From: an uncultured virus (IMG/VR IMGVR_UViG_3300022700_000138)
Taxonomy: Duplodnaviria > Heunggongvirae > Uroviricota > Caudoviricetes
Strand: one strand, 5' to 3'
Length of the DNA: 64,000 nt
IMG/VR virus record: IMGVR_UViG_3300022700_000138
Within the stretch, counting starts at the first letter, position 1, and each line of letters opens with the position of its first letter. The translations under genes and the position numbers were made by a program. Below are positions 58,186-63,715 of this stretch, in pieces. The notes below the pieces were generated by a model that saw nothing but the letters and a program-made list of their open reading frames with translations, was not told the origin of the DNA and made no database searches.

Positions 58186-59307
58186 ATGCGAACCACAACT
58201 TTTTTGTTCCTGAGTCTGTTTCTGGTAGCGTGTGGTACTACCGACACGCCCACGGACAACACAAACAACCAGAACACAAACACCAGCGACCCGGTCTGCG
58301 GGAACGGTATTCTTGAACCCGGGGAGGCCTGCGACGACGGAGCAGACAACTCTGATGTTGCTCCCAATGCCTGCCGCACAGACTGCCGAGAACCCTCTTG
58401 CGGAGACGGGGTCATTGACAGTGGCGAAGCCTGTGACGGTAGTGAGCTAGCTTCTAATAGCTGCGTCGGGCTTGGGTACACTAAGGGGACGCTGGCTTGC
58501 GACCCGATTACCTGTGAATACGACGTCAGAGACTGCAGTACCTGCGGTGATGGCGTTGCTGAAGGAACGGATACCTCGACAGTAGGATACGAAACTTGCG
58601 ACGGGAGTGATCTACGTGGTAAGGATTGCATTTCTATCGGGCAAGCAATGGGTACTCTTGCCTGTAATTCGTCTTGCGAGTGGGATATTTCCGGCTGCGT
58701 GGGAGGGGGCCCAGTTTGCGGAAACGGGATCGTAGAGGAGGGCGAGGAATGTGACGACGGAAACCACACCCTAACCGACAACTGCCCGGACGGACCGGCC
58801 GGAACGTGTCTCAGCGCGTACTGTGGGGATGGGTATGTTCAGGCTGGTATCGAGGGCTGTGATGATGGCAACGGTACCAATGAAGATATCTGCCCGGATG
58901 GCCCAGGTGGAACCTGCCAGACGGCAAGCTGTGGCGATGGGTTCGTGTTTACCGGAGCCGAAAACTGTGATACAGCACTGGACCCTTACTGTCACACTGA
59001 CTGCGTGGCACGTTGTGGAGATGGGACTGTGGATACTCAGTTCGGTGAGCGCTGTGATGACGGGAACAACGTAGACGACGAGGATTGCTACTCCGATTGC
59101 TCTGGCTACTGCGGCGACGCCATTGTTCACGATGGGACTTGGGACGAAAACGTCCAGGCTGTATTGCCAGATCATGGAGAAGAGTGTGACAGAGGTCCTG
59201 TTGGCGGAATTGCCTGTAGTGCAAGCTGTACGCTAACCGATTGTGGTAACGGATCCTGCTTTGAGCCAGTAGAGACACCGGACAATTGCCCGCAAGATTG
59301 TCCGTAG
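58186..59307 (+). CDS. Lipoprotein with Myxococcus cysteine-rich (DUF4215-like) repeats
   Basis: Lipobox LVAC; many CG(N/D)GxxxxGExCDDGN repeats; ends CPQDCP. Confidence 0.85.
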   Translation: MRTTTFLFLSLFLVACGTTDTPTDNTNNQNTNTSDPVCGNGILEPGEACDDGADNSDVAPNACRTDCREPSCGDGVIDSGEACDGSELASNSCVGLGYTKGTLACDPITCEYDVRDCSTCGDGVAEGTDTSTVGYETCDGSDLRGKDCISIGQAMGTLACNSSCEWDISGCVGGGPVCGNGIVEEGEECDDGNHTLTDNCPDGPAGTCLSAYCGDGYVQAGIEGCDDGNGTNEDICPDGPGGTCQTASCGDGFVFTGAENCDTALDPYCHTDCVARCGDGTVDTQFGERCDDGNNVDDEDCYSDCSGYCGDAIVHDGTWDENVQAVLPDHGEECDRGPVGGIACSASCTLTDCGNGSCFEPVETPDNCPQDCP

Positions 59308-59369
59308 TAAACGGCGTCCAGAGGTAGATGGTACCTTGACAACAGAATAGTGAACGATGCGAAGTTTTC

Positions 59370-59442
59370 GGGCCTGTAGCTCAGTTGGGAGAGCATCGCC
59401 CTTGCAAGGCGAATGTCGCTGGTTCGATTCCAGTCAGGTCCA
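59370..59442 (+). tRNA. tRNA-Ala(TGC)
   Basis: Cloverleaf, loop CTTGCAA, G3:U70 pair, TTCGATT T-loop; CCA not encoded. Confidence 0.93.
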
Positions 59443-59600
59443 CAAAATAACCAGGTAGCTGCGCTGCATGGTAGCTGCTCTAGAAGATGCGCAGGGTGTG
59501 TGGGTTATGGTGCTAGGATGGCGCTGCGGCATGGATTGATCCTCCTCAGCCTCAGTACTGGAGTACCCAGTCGGTGAATCCGATCTGCACCTATTCACCT

Positions 59601-59830
59601 AGCTGTCTTTGATAATGAGTGAATTAACTCGGTAAGACTCCGGGCTGGTTTTAATGTTTGAGCCCTGCGTAACGTAAACTGCTCGCCGAAGATCCGTCAA
59701 GGTAGGTCTGTGGCTTACTGGCAGGCGCGAAGCGGTGCGGGGCCGCGTGAGGGTAACCTCTCCCCGTGGTTGGTACGGACAGGGTTGGCAGCTATCCTAT
59801 CCCTCTGACCTTTAAATTATCAAAAGCTGC
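59601..59830 (+). ncRNA. Putative structured ncRNA domain of unknown family
   Basis: Closing helix TTTGATAAT/ATTATCAAA; nested AGCCCTG/CAGGGTT and TCCGT/ACGGA; GAGG-GTAA-CCTC GNRA hairpin. Confidence 0.5.
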
Positions 59831-60046
59831 ATCTTTGAATCGGGTTTGGGCGACCGTTCCCAAGACAAAAAACGGTCGTATTTACAATCCCGTACTACAT
59901 GATCCGTACTAGGATTGTCTTCCTCCGTGAAGCGTGTGGTACGCATCAGAGCCCTGGCCTTTAGCGGTAGGTCATTAGGTAACACGTGCGGCCGAAGTGT
60001 TATCAAAACCGTTAGGCAGGAGATGGTAATTCCGCTCCTGTCGTCT

Positions 60047-60172
60047 GGGTCTTTAGCTTGAAACCTTGGGCTTCCAGGATTAGCTCTCCACGAAAGCTCA
60101 GGGTGGACAAAGCGCTCTGTCTGGGTTCCTAGGCCAGATGGAGAGAACTGGTTCGAGTCCGGTATGGACCCA
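60047..60172 (+). ncRNA. Expanded tRNA-like RNA
   Basis: GGGTC/GACCC acceptor, GCTT/AAGC D-stem with ~50-nt insert, 10-bp anticodon-position stem, ACTGG-TTCGAGT-CCGGT T-arm. Confidence 0.65.
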
Positions 60173-60259
60173 AATCCCGGAAGAGATCAGTAGCCTTTTC
60201 CGAGGCGAACAAAAAGCTACTGAGGTTGTGGGTTCTCCAAAAGCCCTCACCCGGCAAAA

Positions 60260-60363
60260 TAGGATCAGTTGTCTTGTGCAGGATAGGTGGGAGATGTTGA
60301 ATCTTGGTCGCAAGGCTGAGAGGAATGACCCCTGAGATACCACCCATTGGCTTTTGATTGCTA
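60260..60363 (+). ncRNA. Free-standing 23S rRNA L1-stalk (H76-H78)-like RNA
   Basis: GTGCAGGATAGGTGGGAG...TTGAA-[8-bp stem, GCAA loop]-GGA...TGAGATACCACCC, collinear with the bacterial 23S L1 stalk as recalled. Confidence 0.8.
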
Positions 60364-60381
60364 ACTATTTTGTCGGTGTTT

Positions 60382-60464
60382 GGAAGGGTGGCCGAGAGGT
60401 CGAAGGCGGTGCCCTGCTAAGGCATTGAGCGAAAGCTCCGTGGGTTCGAATCCCACCCCTTCCG
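60382..60464 (+). tRNA. tRNA-Ser(GCT)
   Basis: Loop CTGCTAA, variable arm GAGC-GAAA-GCTC, G discriminator. Confidence 0.92.
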
Positions 60465-60523
60465 CTTTTCTTTACCTATATGGAGGGACGGTCTAAGTCC
60501 CCTCGTTTAGAGGTAGACACTCA

Positions 60524-60597
60524 GGGCCCATCGCCTAGTTGGTTCAAGGCACTCGGCCCATACCGGATTATCGCAGGTTCGAATCCTGCTGGGCCCA
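60524..60597 (+). tRNA. Aberrant tRNA with CAT (Ile2/Met-like), 6-nt anticodon loop
   Basis: Perfect GGGCCCA/TGGGCCC acceptor and T-arm; anticodon arm CTCGG-CCCATA-CCGGA. Confidence 0.75.
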
Positions 60598-60609
60598 ATA
60601 ACCGAATGT

Positions 60610-61357
60610 TGTTTTGTCCCTACGTCTCCAAAGCGCGCAGGAGACCTCTGGATGGACAGGCTGATGATCCTCGGTCGTGTTGCTAGTTCCTTCCCGTTAG
60701 GTTGCGCCAGGCGGGCTGTAGTTGAGCCGGGAAGACGACAGGCAGCGATAAAGCCAAAAAACGAGGGTCGCTTATTTTATGACCGTTTACCACATTGATT
60801 CAGGACTCTTTAAAATCCGGGCTGCGGCTGCGGGGAGAGAGTCACAACTGAATTAGATGTGCCACGCAATACTCGGACACTGGTTGTCGTGGGCTTAGGA
60901 ATATAGCTAAACAGTGTTCCGTGAGAGGTGGATAGCCTCAGTAGGTAGATTACCCTGGTTTGTATCCTACGAGGTCCCCTCAATAAATGGGACTAACCGG
61001 TCTGCGTAGAACGCTGCTCGCCAGTAGTGCTGGTCGGGGAGGTAGGTGAGGCACTGCGTAGGAACAAGTGAAGTGATGCCGACCAGCTACGGTTCATTGA
61101 AGTTTGGGCGTCTTCGGTGAACAAGAGATCTTAGGTAGAAACGCCAAAGGATTGGGTGAGGCTACAGTGTAAGCTCAATCCACGAGGGTAGTGGTGGACA
61201 CGCCTGCCTCAACTGCTGCCCGTTTTTTGGTTAGATAATTGGAGGTCATCTAGGCTGTGGCTCGCAGAACCTAGAGAGGCGACTGGTAGGAAGGTAGACT
61301 AACGAGCTTGGCACTGGGTAGATGAAGCCCAGGCGACTAAAACTGCCTACCGCCTCC
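60610..61357 (+). ncRNA. ORF-poor run of structured RNA domains of unknown family
   Basis: Consecutive helices, e.g. 60666-73/60762-69, 60791-803/60848-61, 61029-37/61079-87, 61149-57/61173-81, 61241-46/61352-57. Confidence 0.5.
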
Positions 61358-61371
61358 GTTTTGCGTATAAT

Positions 61372-61449
61372 GGGAGAGTTTGCGGAGAGGTCAGTTTGCC
61401 AGTGAAGGTAGAGATCACTGCGTGGGGTTAGAATCCCCCGCTCTCCCCA
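61372..61449 (+). ncRNA. Degenerate tRNA-like RNA
   Basis: GGGAGAGT/GCTCTCCC acceptor, CAGTGA/TCACTG stem, GGGG-TTAGAAT-CCCC T-arm. Confidence 0.55.
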
Positions 61450-61510
61450 TTGTATCCGCGAGAGGCGTCTCTACATTTCCTCTCGCGGATATTTTCCCCT
61501 AGGTGACGAA

Positions 61511-61732
61511 ATGGATCAAGACGAAGTAAATCGCAGATTACTGGACGCAGCCCGTGAGGGTCAGTGCGATCACGAGTATCCAGGACCCTCTTTCGATCCG
61601 GAAGAGGCACGCGGTATGACCGCCGCGCAGGTACGCGAGCGGCGGCCTCGCTTCTACTGTCCTTGCACAAAGTGCGGAGAGCACTCGATTGCCTATGCTT
61701 CGTACGAACACTATATTGCCGGTGATTGGTAG
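61511..61732 (+). CDS. Small Cys/His-containing hypothetical protein
   Basis: AGGTG SD; CDH...CTKCG...HYIAGDW. Confidence 0.65.
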   Translation: MDQDEVNRRLLDAAREGQCDHEYPGPSFDPEEARGMTAAQVRERRPRFYCPCTKCGEHSIAYASYEHYIAGDW

Positions 61733-61746
61733 ATGGTTTGTATTAT

Positions 61747-61929
61747 GCTCCACAGCACGAGACCAGGCGGCCTTGACGAAGGATGACCCATCTGGTGCGG
61801 AGCTAATGCCTAGTTGATACAAAGATTGGTGATGTTCAGGACGCTGAGACGAGTCAATCTCCAACGAAATTGTGTCATGAGCCACACGTCGTTGGAACTA
61901 GGTGCCGGGTTGAATTCCCGGGTGGGGCT
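61747..61929 (+). ncRNA. Large tRNA-like RNA with branched insertion
   Basis: GCTCCAC/GTGGGGC closing stem, CCGGG-TTGAATT-CCCGG T-arm, GCCTAGTT/AACTAGGT and TCCAACGA/TCGTTGGA helices. Confidence 0.6.
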
Positions 61930-61934
61930 GTTTT

Positions 61935-62007
61935 GCCAGTGTAGCTCAGTTGGTAGAGCAGCTGATTTGTAATCAGCTTGTCGCGGGTTCGACTCCTGTC
62001 ACTGGCT
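61935..62007 (+). tRNA. tRNA-Thr(TGT)
   Basis: Cloverleaf, loop TTTGTAA, TTCGACT T-loop. Confidence 0.95.
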
Positions 62008-62135
62008 TTTTCTTGACTACTAGAAGAAATTATGCTTATTGTAGATAGATCAGAATATATTGCATGGTGCATATCTGTTTGTAATATATGGATAGTAGAT
62101 ATTGCACTGCAATGGAACTGCAATGGAGAGGCGTC

Positions 62136-62423
62136 ATGGACATTGATCGAAAAGCTGACAAACTAGAAACTCCTGTTTGCCCACGCTGTGGCAACGAAAT
62201 GACCCCGACCATAACAGAAGCCGTGTATCACGATGGTCAAAACATTCCAGTTAGAGGTGGTGGCCTTCAAACGTTCGTACCCATTGCGCACCGCCACTGC
62301 TTTCAATGTGAGCAATGCACTCCACCACGCGCAGTGATTGAAGTCCCTTATACTGCAGAAAGAGACTACTGCGTCTGGAGTAACAACCATGAACCCAAAC
62401 GAGACACTAACGAAAATTCGTGA
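62136..62423 (+). CDS. Zn-ribbon hypothetical protein
   Basis: CPRC and CEQC; ATG 62136 with GGAGAGG SD. Confidence 0.55.
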   Translation: MDIDRKADKLETPVCPRCGNEMTPTITEAVYHDGQNIPVRGGGLQTFVPIAHRHCFQCEQCTPPRAVIEVPYTAERDYCVWSNNHEPKRDTNENS

Positions 62424-62616
62424 AGTGGTGAACCTTGTTCGGTTACCGCTGAAATGGTTAATACCTGGGCTAGGCAGGATCCCTTTGGACACGATGAGGT
62501 AAACCGCCGCATTTGTGTTGAGGCCCGCGCCAAGCGTTTGGGTTTCTGGGGGTCGTACGAAAAGTGCGACGGTGAGGGAGTTATTTACCCGACTGATAAA
62601 GCTCAGGTGAACTTGA

Positions 62617-62991
62617 TTTTGTGGATGCTGCATCCGACACCCTCCGTCCGGAGCAGTGGCAGAATCCACCGAAGAACGTCACCAGCACACGAACAAAAAG
62701 ATCGCGTTCAATCGGTTGGTGAAGACGAAAGAGTTTCAGAATTGGGCTCGGTTGCAAGCGGCAGCAGTAGAGCAAGGCTACCGTAATATCGAAGAGAAGG
62801 TCGAAAAGTCGATGACGCCCAACAACCTGAAAGTAGAACACGTAACGACTTACACTTGTGACTCTTGTGGTAGGTCGGAAACAGTTACTTCTACGGATCC
62901 TCTTGACGTGCCTACTTGGTTGGTGTACAGTGGAGAGGATCCCCGAAAGGTAGAGCAACACAGATGTACTGCCTGTGAGAGCAGGAAATGA
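62617..62991 (+). pseudogene. 5'-truncated peptide chain release factor-like (RF-1/ArfB domain) gene lacking GGQ
   Basis: IRHPPSGAVAESTEERHQHTNKKIAFNRL matches the post-GGQ part of RF-1 domains; in-frame TGA at 62614 and 62608. Confidence 0.6.
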
Positions 62992-63239
62992 GCAAGCGTG
63001 CACTAAGGCGACACCACCGTCGGAGGCTTTTCCAAAAGCGCAGACGCTACTGGTCTAGTTTGTCTGATCATCCGAGGATGCTTCGTGTTATAGCTAAAAC
63101 ACCCCAGAGATGTTCTTGTGTTATGTGTAGCGGTAGCGCAGGTCGGAAACACGGCGAGGTTACACTACAGGAGCGAGCGGCCGAAATGGACGAAGAAGAA
63201 CAAATCTCTGCTCATATAGTGAGTGCGGAAGAAAAATAA
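62988..63239 (+). CDS. Small basic protein with CSCxMC motif
   Basis: RRHHRRR...TPQRCSCVMC...VTLQER; ATGA overlap with the upstream stop. Confidence 0.65.
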   Translation: MSKRALRRHHRRRLFQKRRRYWSSLSDHPRMLRVIAKTPQRCSCVMCSGSAGRKHGEVTLQERAAEMDEEEQISAHIVSAEEK

Positions 63240-63244
63240 AATAA

Positions 63245-63319
63245 CGGGGCGTAGCGCAGTCTGGTCAGCGCGCCTGGTTTGGGTCCAGGATGTCGGAGGT
63301 TCAAATCCTCTCGCCCCGA
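63245..63319 (+). tRNA. tRNA-Pro(TGG)
   Basis: CGGGGCG/CGCCCCG acceptor, loop TTTGGGT, TTCAAAT T-loop. Confidence 0.95.
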
Positions 63320-63633
63320 ATGGTGCGCAGCATACAACTCGGTATTCATGCCAATCTCCTGTTCCTCGTTGGAATTGCGAAGTGGTTTGGCTGCGTACCT
63401 TTACTGAGAGTCAGTGGTCATTGAGACCTGCTAGGTGCCTCAATAGTGGAGACGCAGTGAGTGTCTCCCAGATCACTTCATTTGTCTCACCTAAGTAAGT
63501 GAGGCAAATTGAGTGTGGCTGGGCATGCCATGCTCTCCTTACACCTGGGCAAGTGATTAAACTGCCCACTTTTTGACCTCATCGGGCCACCCCAATATTG
63601 CTACGTGGTCAGAGGAGAGACGCCATCATTATC

Positions 63634-63661
63634 TTGACATTTGAGTCTAGCTTGGTACAGT
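63634..63661 (+). promoter_or_regulatory. Sigma70-type promoter with extended -10
   Basis: TTGACA-N16-TACAGT with TGn immediately before the -10. Confidence 0.6.
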
Positions 63662-63715
63662 GGTAGGTGAGCTAGTCAACGTGGTAGCAATTTTAACGTG
63701 TAGGAGAGGATCATA

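What the first reader, a model, noticed from the sequence alone, without database searches (positions are those of the whole stretch)
60047..60172. 126-nt tRNA-like RNA with a two-hairpin D-loop insert and a doubled anticodon stem
Seen: acceptor GGGTCT/GGACCC, TA at 8-9, and D-stem GCTT (60056-59)/AAGC (60110-13) enclosing ~50 nt with hairpins CCTTGG/CCAGG and TCCAC/GTGGA. A 10-bp stem CTCTGTCTGG/CCAGATGGAG has loop GTTCCTAGG, whose centre TT-CCT-AG resembles an Arg CCU anticodon loop. The T-arm is canonical. Inference: too large to decode normally, so probably a tRNA mimic or scaffold rather than random decay, since the inserts are paired.
Basis: partly seen in the sequence, partly recalled or inferred. 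Interest (0 to 1): 0.72.

Follow-up and report, generated by a model that had tools for sequence, protein, structure and literature searches.

The report
Oversized non-decoding phage tRNA look-alike
A large uncultured phage carries, inside its tRNA gene cluster, a 126-base gene built on a lysine-tRNA frame but with an extra hairpin in the D-loop and a double-length anticodon arm, so it is most likely a tRNA-shaped stable RNA of the long-known but unexplained kind seen in phages T4 and T5 rather than a working tRNA.

Summary
The described cloverleaf is really there (60047-60172, + strand). It lies in a tRNA cluster of a huge-phage-like contig, keeps a canonical T-arm, acceptor stem, U8-A9 and D-stem, and folds better than all 200 shuffles. 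ARAGORN and Rfam do not call it. The D-loop insert folds best as one 42-nt hairpin, not two, which leaves a G18-G19-A21-like GGACA free. The anticodon arm is 10 bp with a 9-nt loop, GUUCCUAGG. No single or double excision restores a normal tRNA. Its frame resembles tRNA-Lys. The architecture matches T4 species 1 RNA (rnaC), whose fold I confirmed by covariation, but an rnaC model does not hit it. Relatives of this phage carry many other oversized tRNA look-alikes. The same loop caps a hairpin before a T-arm in at least five other phage contigs, one of them a normal-sized tRNA with an 8-nt loop. A roughly 91%-identical strain has six changes in the element: five fit the preferred fold and one breaks a pair. 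Verdict: a non-decoding tRNA-derived RNA gene, a new member of a known but functionally unexplained kind. Expression is untested. A 72-nt 23S L1-stalk copy lies 100 nt downstream.

The parts
60047..60172 (+). whole 126-nt tRNA-like RNA gene (discriminator A at 60172, no encoded CCA)
60047..60052 (+). acceptor 5' strand GGGUCU, pairing with 60166-60171 GGACCC; U7.U119 mismatch and one extra base at the junction with the T-stem
60056..60059 (+). D-stem 5' strand GCUU (3' strand AAGC at 60110-60113), preceded by U8-A9
60063..60104 (+). 42-nt hairpin inserted in the D-loop at about tRNA position 17 (12-bp stem, internal loop, 3-bp tip, 7-nt loop UUAGCUC)
   Evidence: no other copy in the window
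60105..60109 (+). GGACA, unpaired in the preferred fold; corresponds to G18 G19 N A21 of a tRNA D-loop
   Evidence: read from the fold; the tRNA numbering is from established knowledge
60115..60143 (+). 10-bp arm at the anticodon-arm position, CUCUGUCUGG/CCAGAUGGAG; the inner 5 bp UCUGG/CCAGA resemble a tRNA-Lys anticodon stem
60125..60133 (+). 9-nt loop GUUCCUAGG (reads as UU-CCU-AG closed by G.G; contains the palindrome CCUAGG); unchanged in the variant strain and shared with other phage tRNA-like genes
60147..60163 (+). canonical T-arm ACUGG-UUCGAGU-CCGGU
   Evidence: the two stem changes in the variant strain keep both pairs
59370..59443 (+). tRNA-Ala(UGC), first gene of the cluster
60382..60465 (+). 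tRNA-Ser(GCU); tRNA-Met(CAU) follows at 60524-60597, tRNA-Thr at 61935-62007 and tRNA-Pro at 63245-63319, all on the same strand

Best explanation
This is a tRNA-derived RNA gene that no longer decodes. It is a phage 'tRNA-like stable RNA' of the T4 species 1 (rnaC) / T5 RNA1-RNA2 kind. Shown here: it sits on the coding strand inside a phage tRNA cluster. It keeps an acceptor stem, U8-A9, a D-stem, a GG-A in the D-loop and a canonical T-arm on a frame that resembles tRNA-Lys. It has a 42-nt hairpin inserted in the D-loop and a 10-bp arm with a 9-nt loop where a 5-bp stem and 7-nt loop should be. Inferred: it is transcribed with the neighbouring tRNAs. Because the acceptor/T-arm half is what RNase P, 3' trimming and the CCA-adding enzyme recognise (established knowledge), it is cut out and accumulates as a discrete, stable, L-shaped RNA. 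The doubled arm puts the loop about 5 bp too far from the elbow for ribosomal decoding. The working part is most likely the invariant loop GUUCCUAGG held on a long arm. That loop would bind a specific partner, either a tRNA-anticodon-recognising protein or, through its palindrome CCUAGG, a second copy of the RNA. The partner is unknown.
For: The fold and its significance come, and the unique T-arm motif. The Lys-like frame rests on an L002 tRNA-Lys match at 25.3 bits that shares GGGUCCUUAGCU/GGACCCA, and on the inner stem UCUGG/CCAGA against Mimi tRNA-Lys(ctt) UCUGA/UCAGA. Standard finders do not call it. In the excision test, 0 of 264 deletions confined to the anticodon arm were called. Only 5 of 96 D-insert deletions were called, each with an abnormal 4-base anticodon. 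No single anticodon emerged among the 1712 of 20370 records that were called. T4 rnaC has the same layout: an acceptor stem with U.U mismatches, a short D-stem enclosing a long hairpin followed by GG, a 10-bp hairpin, and a canonical T-arm. In rnaC, 19 of 46 pairs show compensatory changes across 5 genera. The T5 record annotates RNA1 and RNA2 as 'tRNA-like stable RNA with unknown functions'. Relatives of this phage hold many oversized tRNA look-alikes with intact acceptor and T-arms that ARAGORN misses: 7 orphan T-arms in a 10-kb stretch of G001 (7 kb of it) and 6 more in G002. The same loop sits on a hairpin before a T-arm in G003, G004/5/6, L022, L023 and L050, and stems flanking the loop differ in sequence between contigs, with both sides changed in the L022/L023 pair. 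In the variant strain the 48 nt at 60100-60147, which include the whole arm, are unchanged, and the two T-stem changes keep both pairs. The insert is not a repeated mobile hairpin in the window.
Against: There is no evidence of transcription or processing. No homologue of the whole 126-nt element was found: none in IMG/VR, in INPHARED phages, in 7 related metagenome loci, or in the tRNA regions and whole-record first look of two related phages. The rnaC model hits only the T-arm (6.1 bits, E 1.1), so the likeness to rnaC is one of design, not of demonstrated descent. The element's divergence from the variant strain (6 of 126, 4.8%) is lower than in the 205 nt upstream (25, about 12%), but it is not lower than in 61187-61731 (10 of 545, 1.8%). 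One of the six changes breaks a pair in the preferred fold, G24-C51. The loop-family statistics are only suggestive. Hairpin closure of at least 4 bp was seen in 4 of 7 distinct hits with a T-arm against 5 of 27 without. The loop and T-loop letters were required by the search pattern itself.
Confidence: 0.55

Rival explanations
1. It is a decaying pseudogene. A former tRNA (Lys-type frame, CCU/CCUA-type loop) picked up an insertion in the D-loop and a stem duplication, and it is now drifting without function.
For: Phage tRNA clusters turn over quickly. The variant strain has replaced or lost most of 59443-59842 next to the element. The acceptor/T junction is irregular (U.U plus one extra base). 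One strain difference breaks a pair. The element is not more conserved than 61187-61731. No full-length homologue was found.
Against: Both additions are fully paired and raise fold stability (z -2.75). The arm and loop are unchanged in the variant, and the T-stem changes keep pairing. The same loop is kept in other phages on stems of differing sequence. The same design is under selection in T4-like phages. Relatives hold oversized look-alikes with perfect 7-bp acceptor stems.
Confidence: 0.2
2. It is a real tRNA gene with intervening sequences that are removed after transcription, as proposed for the oversized tRNAs of Lak megaphages. The product would be a decoder of AGG (CCU) or of a four-base UAGG (CCUA).
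For: Lak megaphage tRNAs 'larger than expected' were read as intron-bearing (PMC6784885, passages). The phage uses AGG (148) and AGA (238) for 386 of 818 Arg codons, and no tRNA-Arg is called in the window. A normal-sized tRNA with the 8-nt loop UUCCUAGG exists in the 212-kb phage G003 (ARAGORN 'ccta'). Removing the D insert alone gives a tRNA call in 5 of 96 trials.
Against: Two separate excisions would be needed. The extra 10 nt of the arm lie on both strands, so one cut cannot remove them. None of the contiguous deletions I worked through by hand leaves a 7-nt loop with U33. In one search the anticodon called changes with the arbitrary cut. The D-loop junction is an internal loop, not a bulge-helix-bulge. 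The inserts are far too short for group I introns. TAG ends 20 of 49 ORFs, so a UAG-reading tRNA would be costly.
Confidence: 0.1
3. It is a decoy or partner for a defined tRNA-binding system. It could be bait for a host anticodon nuclease that attacks tRNA-Lys or tRNA-Arg, or a Y-RNA-like (YrlA-type) partner of a Ro/TROVE protein.
For: The frame is Lys-like and the loop is well formed and anticodon-like. Some jumbo phages encode Ro/TROVE with a tRNA-like partner (PMC7824862, passage). tRNA-Lys and tRNA-Arg anticodon nucleases are known host weapons (reference titles seen in PMC7824862 and the listing for PMC2610378; the remainder is recalled).
Against: No TROVE, RtcB, RNA ligase or Pnkp domain was found in the 51 window ORFs scanned with Pfam, but the contig has a further ~100 kb that I could not see. 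The Rfam YrlA model gives nothing on the element. In YrlA the 5'/3' ends form the long stem, which is a different topology (recalled). The loop is not Lys-like.
Confidence: 0.1

Closest known systems
Bacteriophage T4 species 1 RNA (rnaC; NC_000866 70908-71046, 139 nt)
   Same: Both are encoded on the tRNA strand of the phage tRNA cluster. Both have an acceptor-like stem with U.U mismatch(es), a short D-stem enclosing a long hairpin followed by GG, a 10-bp hairpin at the anticodon-arm position, almost no variable region and a canonical T-arm. Neither has a usable anticodon arm. The sizes are 126 and 139 nt. rnaC is co-transcribed with the tRNAs (PMC2330249, passage). Its function was still unknown in 2022 and 2025 (PMC9697503 and PMC12685909, passages).
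   Different: There is no detectable sequence relationship: the rnaC covariance model hits only the T-arm. The loops differ. rnaC has two invariant, mutually complementary loops, UUGACG and CGUCAA, whereas this element has one palindromic loop. rnaC has an 8-nt spacer before its 10-bp hairpin, where the element has 1 nt.
Bacteriophage T5 RNA1 and RNA2 (NC_005859 30501-30644 and 32959-33083, annotated 'tRNA-like stable RNA with unknown functions')
   Same: Both are oversized (144 and 125 nt) tRNA frames in a phage tRNA region that also holds further stable RNAs of unknown function. Both keep the acceptor stem and T-arm and cannot decode.
   Different: In the predicted folds the T5 RNAs keep an ordinary D-arm and carry their extra sequence as a long irregular anticodon-position arm plus a variable arm. 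The element instead carries a D-loop insert.
Oversized 'intron-containing' tRNAs of Lak megaphages (PMC6784885)
   Same: Both are tRNA genes of huge phages that are larger than expected and are missed or left unclassified by bacterial tRNA finders.
   Different: The Lak inserts were modelled as anticodon-loop introns that leave a normal tRNA. Here no excision gives a normal anticodon arm. I read passages of that paper only, not its supplementary tables.
tRNA-Lys of phages (L002 tRNA-Lys(UUU); Arthrobacter phage Mimi tRNA-Lys(CUU)) and the 8-nt-loop tRNA of IMG/VR phage G003
   Same: The 5' end GGGUCYUUAGCU, the 3' end GGACCCA, the inner anticodon stem UCUGG/CCAGA and the T-arm are shared. The G003 tRNA shares UCUGG-UUCCUAGG-C.AGA almost letter for letter.
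   Different: Those are 73-79 nt with a normal D-arm and a 5-bp anticodon stem. The element has 42 extra nt in the D-loop, 5 extra bp in the arm and a 9-nt loop.

Membership tests
Canonical tRNA (Rfam RF00005) | Scores at or above the family gathering score (29 bits), or is called by ARAGORN | tested here: not met
   No RF00005 match on 60047-60172 even at E<=10 in a 161-nt search. ARAGORN at default settings makes no call. A call appears only at a relaxed threshold, as 'Trp cca, intron 40'.
Canonical tRNA (Rfam RF00005) | Acceptor stem, U8, D-stem, G18-G19 and a T-arm with a UUCRA loop | tested here: met
   The acceptor stem has 6 pairs plus a U.U mismatch and one extra base at the T junction.
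Canonical tRNA (Rfam RF00005) | 5-bp anticodon stem with a 7-nt loop | tested here: not met
   The stem is 10 bp and the loop 9 nt. 0 of 264 single deletions in the arm gave an ARAGORN call.
T4 rnaC (species 1 RNA) family | Match to a covariance model built from rnaC of five Tevenvirinae genera | tested here: not met
   Model R2 with filters off hits only the T-arm at 60146-60163 (6.1 bits, E 1.1).
T4 rnaC (species 1 RNA) family | Architecture: acceptor stem, D-stem enclosing a long hairpin, 10-bp hairpin and T-arm, located in a tRNA cluster on the tRNA strand | tested here: met
   The element's own model aligns rnaC end to end at 12.6 bits, E 0.011.
T4 rnaC / T5 RNA1-2 kind | Accumulates as a discrete stable RNA processed from the tRNA transcript | not testable with these tools
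   No RNA run holds the stretch.
Intron-containing tRNA | Removing one contiguous insert yields a canonical tRNA with a defined anticodon | tested here: not met
   5 of 96 D-only deletions were called, all as tRNA-??? (gggt). Double deletions gave many different anticodons.
Y RNA-like YrlA (RF02553) with a Ro/TROVE partner | Match to the model and a Ro/TROVE gene nearby | tested here: not met
   No YrlA match on the element. No TROVE domain in the 51 ORFs scanned. The contig outside the window was not seen.
tmRNA | tRNA-like domain plus a tag reading frame; called by ARAGORN -m | tested here: not met
   The acceptor has G3-C70 rather than G3.U70.

The most novel reading that the evidence does not exclude
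The arm capped by GUUCCUAGG marks a family of tRNA-Lys-derived RNAs that is spread across unrelated phages. Its self-complementary CCUAGG loop would act as a docking or dimerisation site. In this phage the RNA would work together with the adjacent stand-alone copy of the 23S L1 stalk, the ribosomal element that grips the tRNA elbow. The locus would then encode decoys of the translation apparatus that capture host factors such as ribosomal protein uL1, a tRNA-anticodon nuclease or a synthetase.
Probability: 0.1. Interest if true: 0.8.

Novelty: new member of a known kind. Interest (0 to 1): 0.42.

Why it matters
Phage T4 and T5 have carried tRNA-shaped stable RNAs of unknown function for fifty years. 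This element, the many oversized look-alikes in its relatives, and the shared loop motif show that the design is widespread in uncultured large phages and that standard tRNA finders miss it. A conserved loop on a rigid arm gives a concrete handle for finding the binding partner, for example by pull-down or dimerisation assay. The neighbouring L1-stalk copy suggests that such loci may hold several mimics of translation-apparatus RNAs. For annotation, these genes should not be counted as decoding tRNAs or as intron-bearing tRNAs without RNA evidence.

Tried and rejected
- **Exact-pattern scans of IMG/VR** with the element's T-arm and acceptor found nothing.
- **Single-protein locus searches in IMG/VR** with the 484-aa protein and with GyrA found no relatives.
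- **Seven metagenome loci** encoding relatives of the 484-aa neighbour lack the element and lack synteny with the tRNA block.
- **Two related phage records:** the whole-record first look with the element's model found nothing. The full search of their tRNA regions returned only real tRNAs.
- **BLAST of the element against INPHARED phages** gave only a 24-nt T-arm match.
- **Sequencing runs:** no RNA holder is listed. The two DNA holders come from one study and gave one variant strain.
- **Mobile-hairpin idea:** the insert has no other copy in the window.
- **Bulge-helix-bulge intron idea:** rejected by inspection, because the two unpaired stretches face each other.
- **Loop-loop pairing like that of rnaC:** at best 4 bp with the tip of the D hairpin, or 5 of 6 with 60097-60102. 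This is chance level by my estimate.
- **Further rRNA-like pieces** in 59443-60046 and 60598-61371: none.
- **Source of the L1-stalk copy:** an 18-mer from it gave 23 genome hits, about the number I estimated by hand for chance. The longest extends to only 26 nt and none reaches beyond the hairpin into the rest of the L1-like stretch.
- **Promoter and terminator scan:** uninformative.
- **BLAST of the L022 and L050 elements against phages:** nothing beyond T-arm matches.

Full report
**Context.** The window reads like part of a huge phage. Nearly all long ORFs lie on the + strand. They include a UDG-exonuclease-PolA fusion, GyrB, GyrA, a Dam-type methylase, a dCTP-deaminase-like protein and a protein with a peptidoglycan-binding domain. 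Most of the large ORFs have no Pfam family. The protein index gives 163 kb for the longest contig that carries the window's own 484-aa protein. No whole genome is held. From 59.3 kb onward lies a block that is richer in G+C and largely non-coding. It holds tRNA-Ala, Ser, Met, Thr and Pro, all on the + strand. The finding lies between tRNA-Ala and tRNA-Ser.

**The observation.**
- The 126 nt fold into the described cloverleaf at -51.8 kcal/mol, against -41.97 +/- 3.58 for shuffles (z -2.75). None of 200 shuffles folds as well.
- On the + strand of the 64-kb window, a GG-TTCRA T-arm with a 5-bp stem occurs only in the five tRNAs and here.
- ARAGORN and Rfam do not report the element, even at E<=10 in a 161-nt search.
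- A model built from the element (R1) scores genuine tRNAs end to end at 18-27 bits. The frame is therefore tRNA-like beyond chance.
- The best such match among loci related to this phage is a tRNA-Lys(UUU) that shares GGGUCCUUAGCU...GGACCCA.

**Two details need correcting.**
- The 50 nt inside the D-stem fold best as one 42-nt hairpin (60063-60104) flanked by GAA and GGACA, not as two hairpins. The whole-molecule energy is -51.5 against -40.9 kcal/mol in the window sequence. It is -43.7 against -40.5 in the variant strain, whose own optimum (-48.8) is again a single hairpin.
- In this fold the insert sits at about D-loop position 17, and the GG-A that corresponds to G18, G19 and A21 stays free. 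The L-shape could therefore still form. That last step is an inference from standard tRNA numbering.
- The junction between acceptor and T-stem carries a U.U mismatch and one extra base.

**Can it be a working or spliced tRNA?** The arm at the anticodon position is a continuous 10-bp helix with a 9-nt loop, GUUCCUAGG. I removed every block in the D region (96 versions), every 6-16-nt block in the arm (264 versions) and all combinations (20,370 records in total), then ran ARAGORN.
- The native sequence is not called.
- 5 of the 96 D-only deletions are called, each as a tRNA with an abnormal four-base anticodon.
- None of the arm-only deletions is called.
- The double deletions give whatever anticodon the arbitrary cut creates (Pro, Gly, Arg, Trp and others).

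The extra 10 nt of the arm lie on both strands, so one excision cannot remove them. The intron reading offered for oversized Lak megaphage tRNAs (PMC6784885, passages) therefore does not fit. TAG ends 20 of 49 ORFs, so an amber-reading tRNA would be costly. AGG and AGA make up 386 of 818 Arg codons and no tRNA-Arg is called in the window, so a CCU decoder would have been useful. This molecule cannot be that decoder.

**Closest known.** Recalling the two unexplained stable RNAs of the T4 tRNA cluster, I fetched the region. rnaD and rnaC are annotated directly after tRNA-Arg.
- rnaC (139 nt) folds at -50.2 kcal/mol (z -4.57). It has an acceptor-like stem with U.U mismatches, a 3-bp D-stem enclosing a hairpin of about 60 nt followed by GG, a 10-bp hairpin at the anticodon-arm position, and a canonical T-arm.
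- BLAST finds rnaC in 748 phage records.
- An alignment from five Tevenvirinae genera supports this fold: 19 of 46 pairs show compensatory changes.
- The layout is the same as in the window element. R1 aligns rnaC end to end at 12.6 bits, E 0.011.
- The reverse test fails. An rnaC model (R2) hits only the T-arm of the element (6.1 bits, E 1.1). The two share a design, not demonstrable descent.
- The T5 record annotates RNA1 (144 nt) and RNA2 (125 nt) as 'tRNA-like stable RNA with unknown functions', among several other stable RNAs in its tRNA region. Their predicted folds keep an ordinary D-arm and enlarge the anticodon arm instead.
- Papers from 2022 and 2025 still call rnaC and rnaD functionally unknown (PMC9697503 and PMC12685909, passages). 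A 2008 paper states that they are made from the same primary transcript of about 1.75 kb as the eight tRNAs (PMC2330249, passage).
- After I had reached this point, earlier notes of this scan turned out to describe several similar phage elements and to name the same comparators.

**Relatives of this phage.** The 484-aa neighbour protein has 28 relatives at 34-64% identity (29 hits including the window's own protein).
- Seven metagenome loci and two IMG/VR records (222 and 260 kb) encode relatives. None keeps the tRNA block next to that gene, and none has a homologue of the element.
- Their tRNA regions nevertheless contain many canonical T-arms that ARAGORN assigns to no tRNA: 7 in 7 kb of one record and 6 in the other.
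- Most of these are followed by a 3' strand that pairs over 7 bp with a stretch 60-160 nt upstream. They fold into multi-arm molecules of 87-161 nt.
- Oversized tRNA look-alikes are thus common in this phage group, and each has a different interior.

**The loop.** Scanning IMG/VR for the loop plus its two closing G-C pairs, followed by a T-loop, gave hits in tRNA-like settings.
- Two related contigs, L022 and L023, have an acceptor GGGGYG/CRCCCC, a hairpin GYGG-GUUCCUAGG-CCRC and a 6-bp T-arm. Each helix shows one compensatory change between the two.
- L050 has a long interrupted arm capped by the same loop.
- Three contigs, G004-G006, share one roughly 74-nt look-alike with a 6-bp stem and the same 9-nt loop (R1 28.0 bits).
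- The complete 212-kb phage G003 has an otherwise normal tRNA whose anticodon arm reads UCUGG-UUCCUAGG-CUAGA. ARAGORN calls it a tRNA with the four-base anticodon ccta.
- That arm matches the inner half of the window's arm (UCUGG-GUUCCUAGG-CCAGA) almost letter for letter.
- The nearest cultured relative of the G003 tRNA is the tRNA-Lys(CUU) of Arthrobacter phage Mimi (81% identity), whose arm is UCUGA-UUCUUAA-UCAGA.
- The motif occurs once in four of these five records and twice in G006, once on each strand.

Together with the Lys-like 5' and 3' ends, this points to a tRNA-Lys-type ancestor whose loop was remodelled.

**Caution on the loop family.** The loop and T-loop letters were demanded by the pattern. 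Of the 34 distinct hits of the widest scan, 7 have a real T-stem. Hairpin closure of at least 4 bp occurs in 4 of those 7, against 5 of the 27 without a T-stem. The family is therefore suggested, not proven.

**The strain comparison.** Contigs of two DNA runs from one study hold a variant about 91% identical over 59842-60235.
- Six substitutions fall inside the element, plus a 4-nt insertion in the 3' trailer.
- Two adjacent T-stem changes turn C-G, U.G into U.G, C-G.
- One change lies at a variable T-loop position.
- One turns a G-C pair of the insert hairpin into G.U.
- One turns a bulged A into a G that can pair.
- One breaks G24-C51.
- The 48 nt from 60100 to 60147, which include the whole arm and loop, are unchanged.
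- Divergence is 4.8% in the element, about 12% in the 205 nt upstream, and 1.8% in 61187-61731.

The comparison is compatible with constraint but does not prove it.

**Mechanism.**
- Shown: a stable tRNA-shaped fold with intact recognition elements for the tRNA-processing enzymes, placed in a tRNA cluster, which cannot be turned into a decoder.
- Inferred from established knowledge of RNase P and CCA-adding enzyme substrates, and from the T4 precedent: it is cut from the cluster transcript and persists as a small RNA.
- Inferred from conservation of the loop: the loop on its long arm is the functional end.
- The loop reads either as a well-formed anticodon loop (U32 U33 CCU A37 G38) closed by G.G, or as a 6-nt palindrome that could form a kissing dimer.
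- No Ro/TROVE, RtcB or RNA-ligase gene lies in the window.
- My odds: a functional non-decoding tRNA-like RNA 0.55, decay 0.2, a spliced real tRNA 0.1, a specific decoy or Ro partner 0.1.

**Side finding.** A stretch 100 nt downstream, 60275-60346, matches the bacterial 23S model at positions 2135-2206 (39.7 bits, E 3.9e-11 in a 156-nt search) with the helices kept. It is 74% identical to E. coli 23S. By my recall this region is the L1 stalk (H76-78). No rplA or other ribosomal gene is nearby, no other rRNA-like piece was found, and one literature search found no phage precedent. It deserves a study of its own.

Noticed in passing
window 60275-60346 (+): A stand-alone 72-nt copy of the 23S rRNA L1-stalk region lies between the tRNA-like RNA and tRNA-Ser. 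Rfam LSU_rRNA_bacteria matches at 39.7 bits, E 3.9e-11, model positions 2135-2206. It is 74% identical to E. coli 23S and its helices are kept by compensatory changes. No L1 gene or other rRNA piece is nearby. The variant strain's contig stops aligning at 60235.
   Followed up: partly
window 61372-61447 (+): A second aberrant tRNA look-alike. It has an 8-bp acceptor stem GGGAGAGU/GCUCUCCC, a T-arm, a 6-bp stem with the 9-nt loop AGGUAGAGA, and almost no variable region. Its best Rfam match is tRNA-Sec at 22 bits (E 0.62), and ARAGORN does not call it. The run contigs covering 61187-61731 are about 98% identical.
   Followed up: partly
window 59300-63700 (+): The motif GGTAGR is enriched and strand-biased: 16 of 17 copies in this block lie on the + strand, several just upstream of tRNA or tRNA-like genes (for example 60512, 12 nt before tRNA-Met). 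AGGTAG also precedes the look-alikes in L022 and L023 and the G003 tRNA. It may be a phage promoter or a processing signal.
   Followed up: no
window 61905-61921 (+): An isolated T-arm-like hairpin, CCGGGTTGAATTCCCGG, lies 14 nt upstream of tRNA-Thr. Rfam gives a weak YrlA match across 61878-61994 (17 bits, E 9.6).
   Followed up: no
L017 (G001:1-10000) and L019-L021 (G002:207000-260067): Relatives of this phage carry at least 13 canonical T-arms outside any ARAGORN tRNA. Many belong to 87-161-nt multi-arm tRNA look-alikes with perfect 7-bp acceptor stems and 6-bp T-stems, for example L017 5799-5959 and L021 4851-4991.
   Followed up: partly
L063 236-311 (-) = IMG/VR G003, 212-kb complete phage: A normal-sized tRNA with an encoded CCA has an 8-nt anticodon loop, UUCCUAGG. 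ARAGORN reads a four-base anticodon ccta, which would pair with UAGG. Its body is 81% identical to a tRNA-Lys(CUU) of Arthrobacter phages. It may be a natural four-base or frameshifting decoder.
   Followed up: partly
T4 rnaC alignment A4 (L010:2905-3050 and four T4-like phages): The tip loop of the D-region hairpin (UUGACG) and the loop of the 10-bp hairpin (CGUCAA) are invariant in five genera and are exact complements. This suggests a loop-loop contact within one molecule or between molecules.
   Followed up: no
L023 1011-1463 (-) and L022: In two smaller phage contigs the look-alike with the GUUCCUAGG loop is not in a tRNA cluster. It lies directly upstream of a gene's ribosome-binding site; in L023 that gene encodes a single-stranded-DNA-binding protein.
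   Followed up: no
L009 1867-1940 (LR745206, 635-kb uncultured phage): ARAGORN calls a tRNA with the four-base anticodon gtag inside an array of repeated tRNA-Asp, Pro and Gln genes.
   Followed up: no
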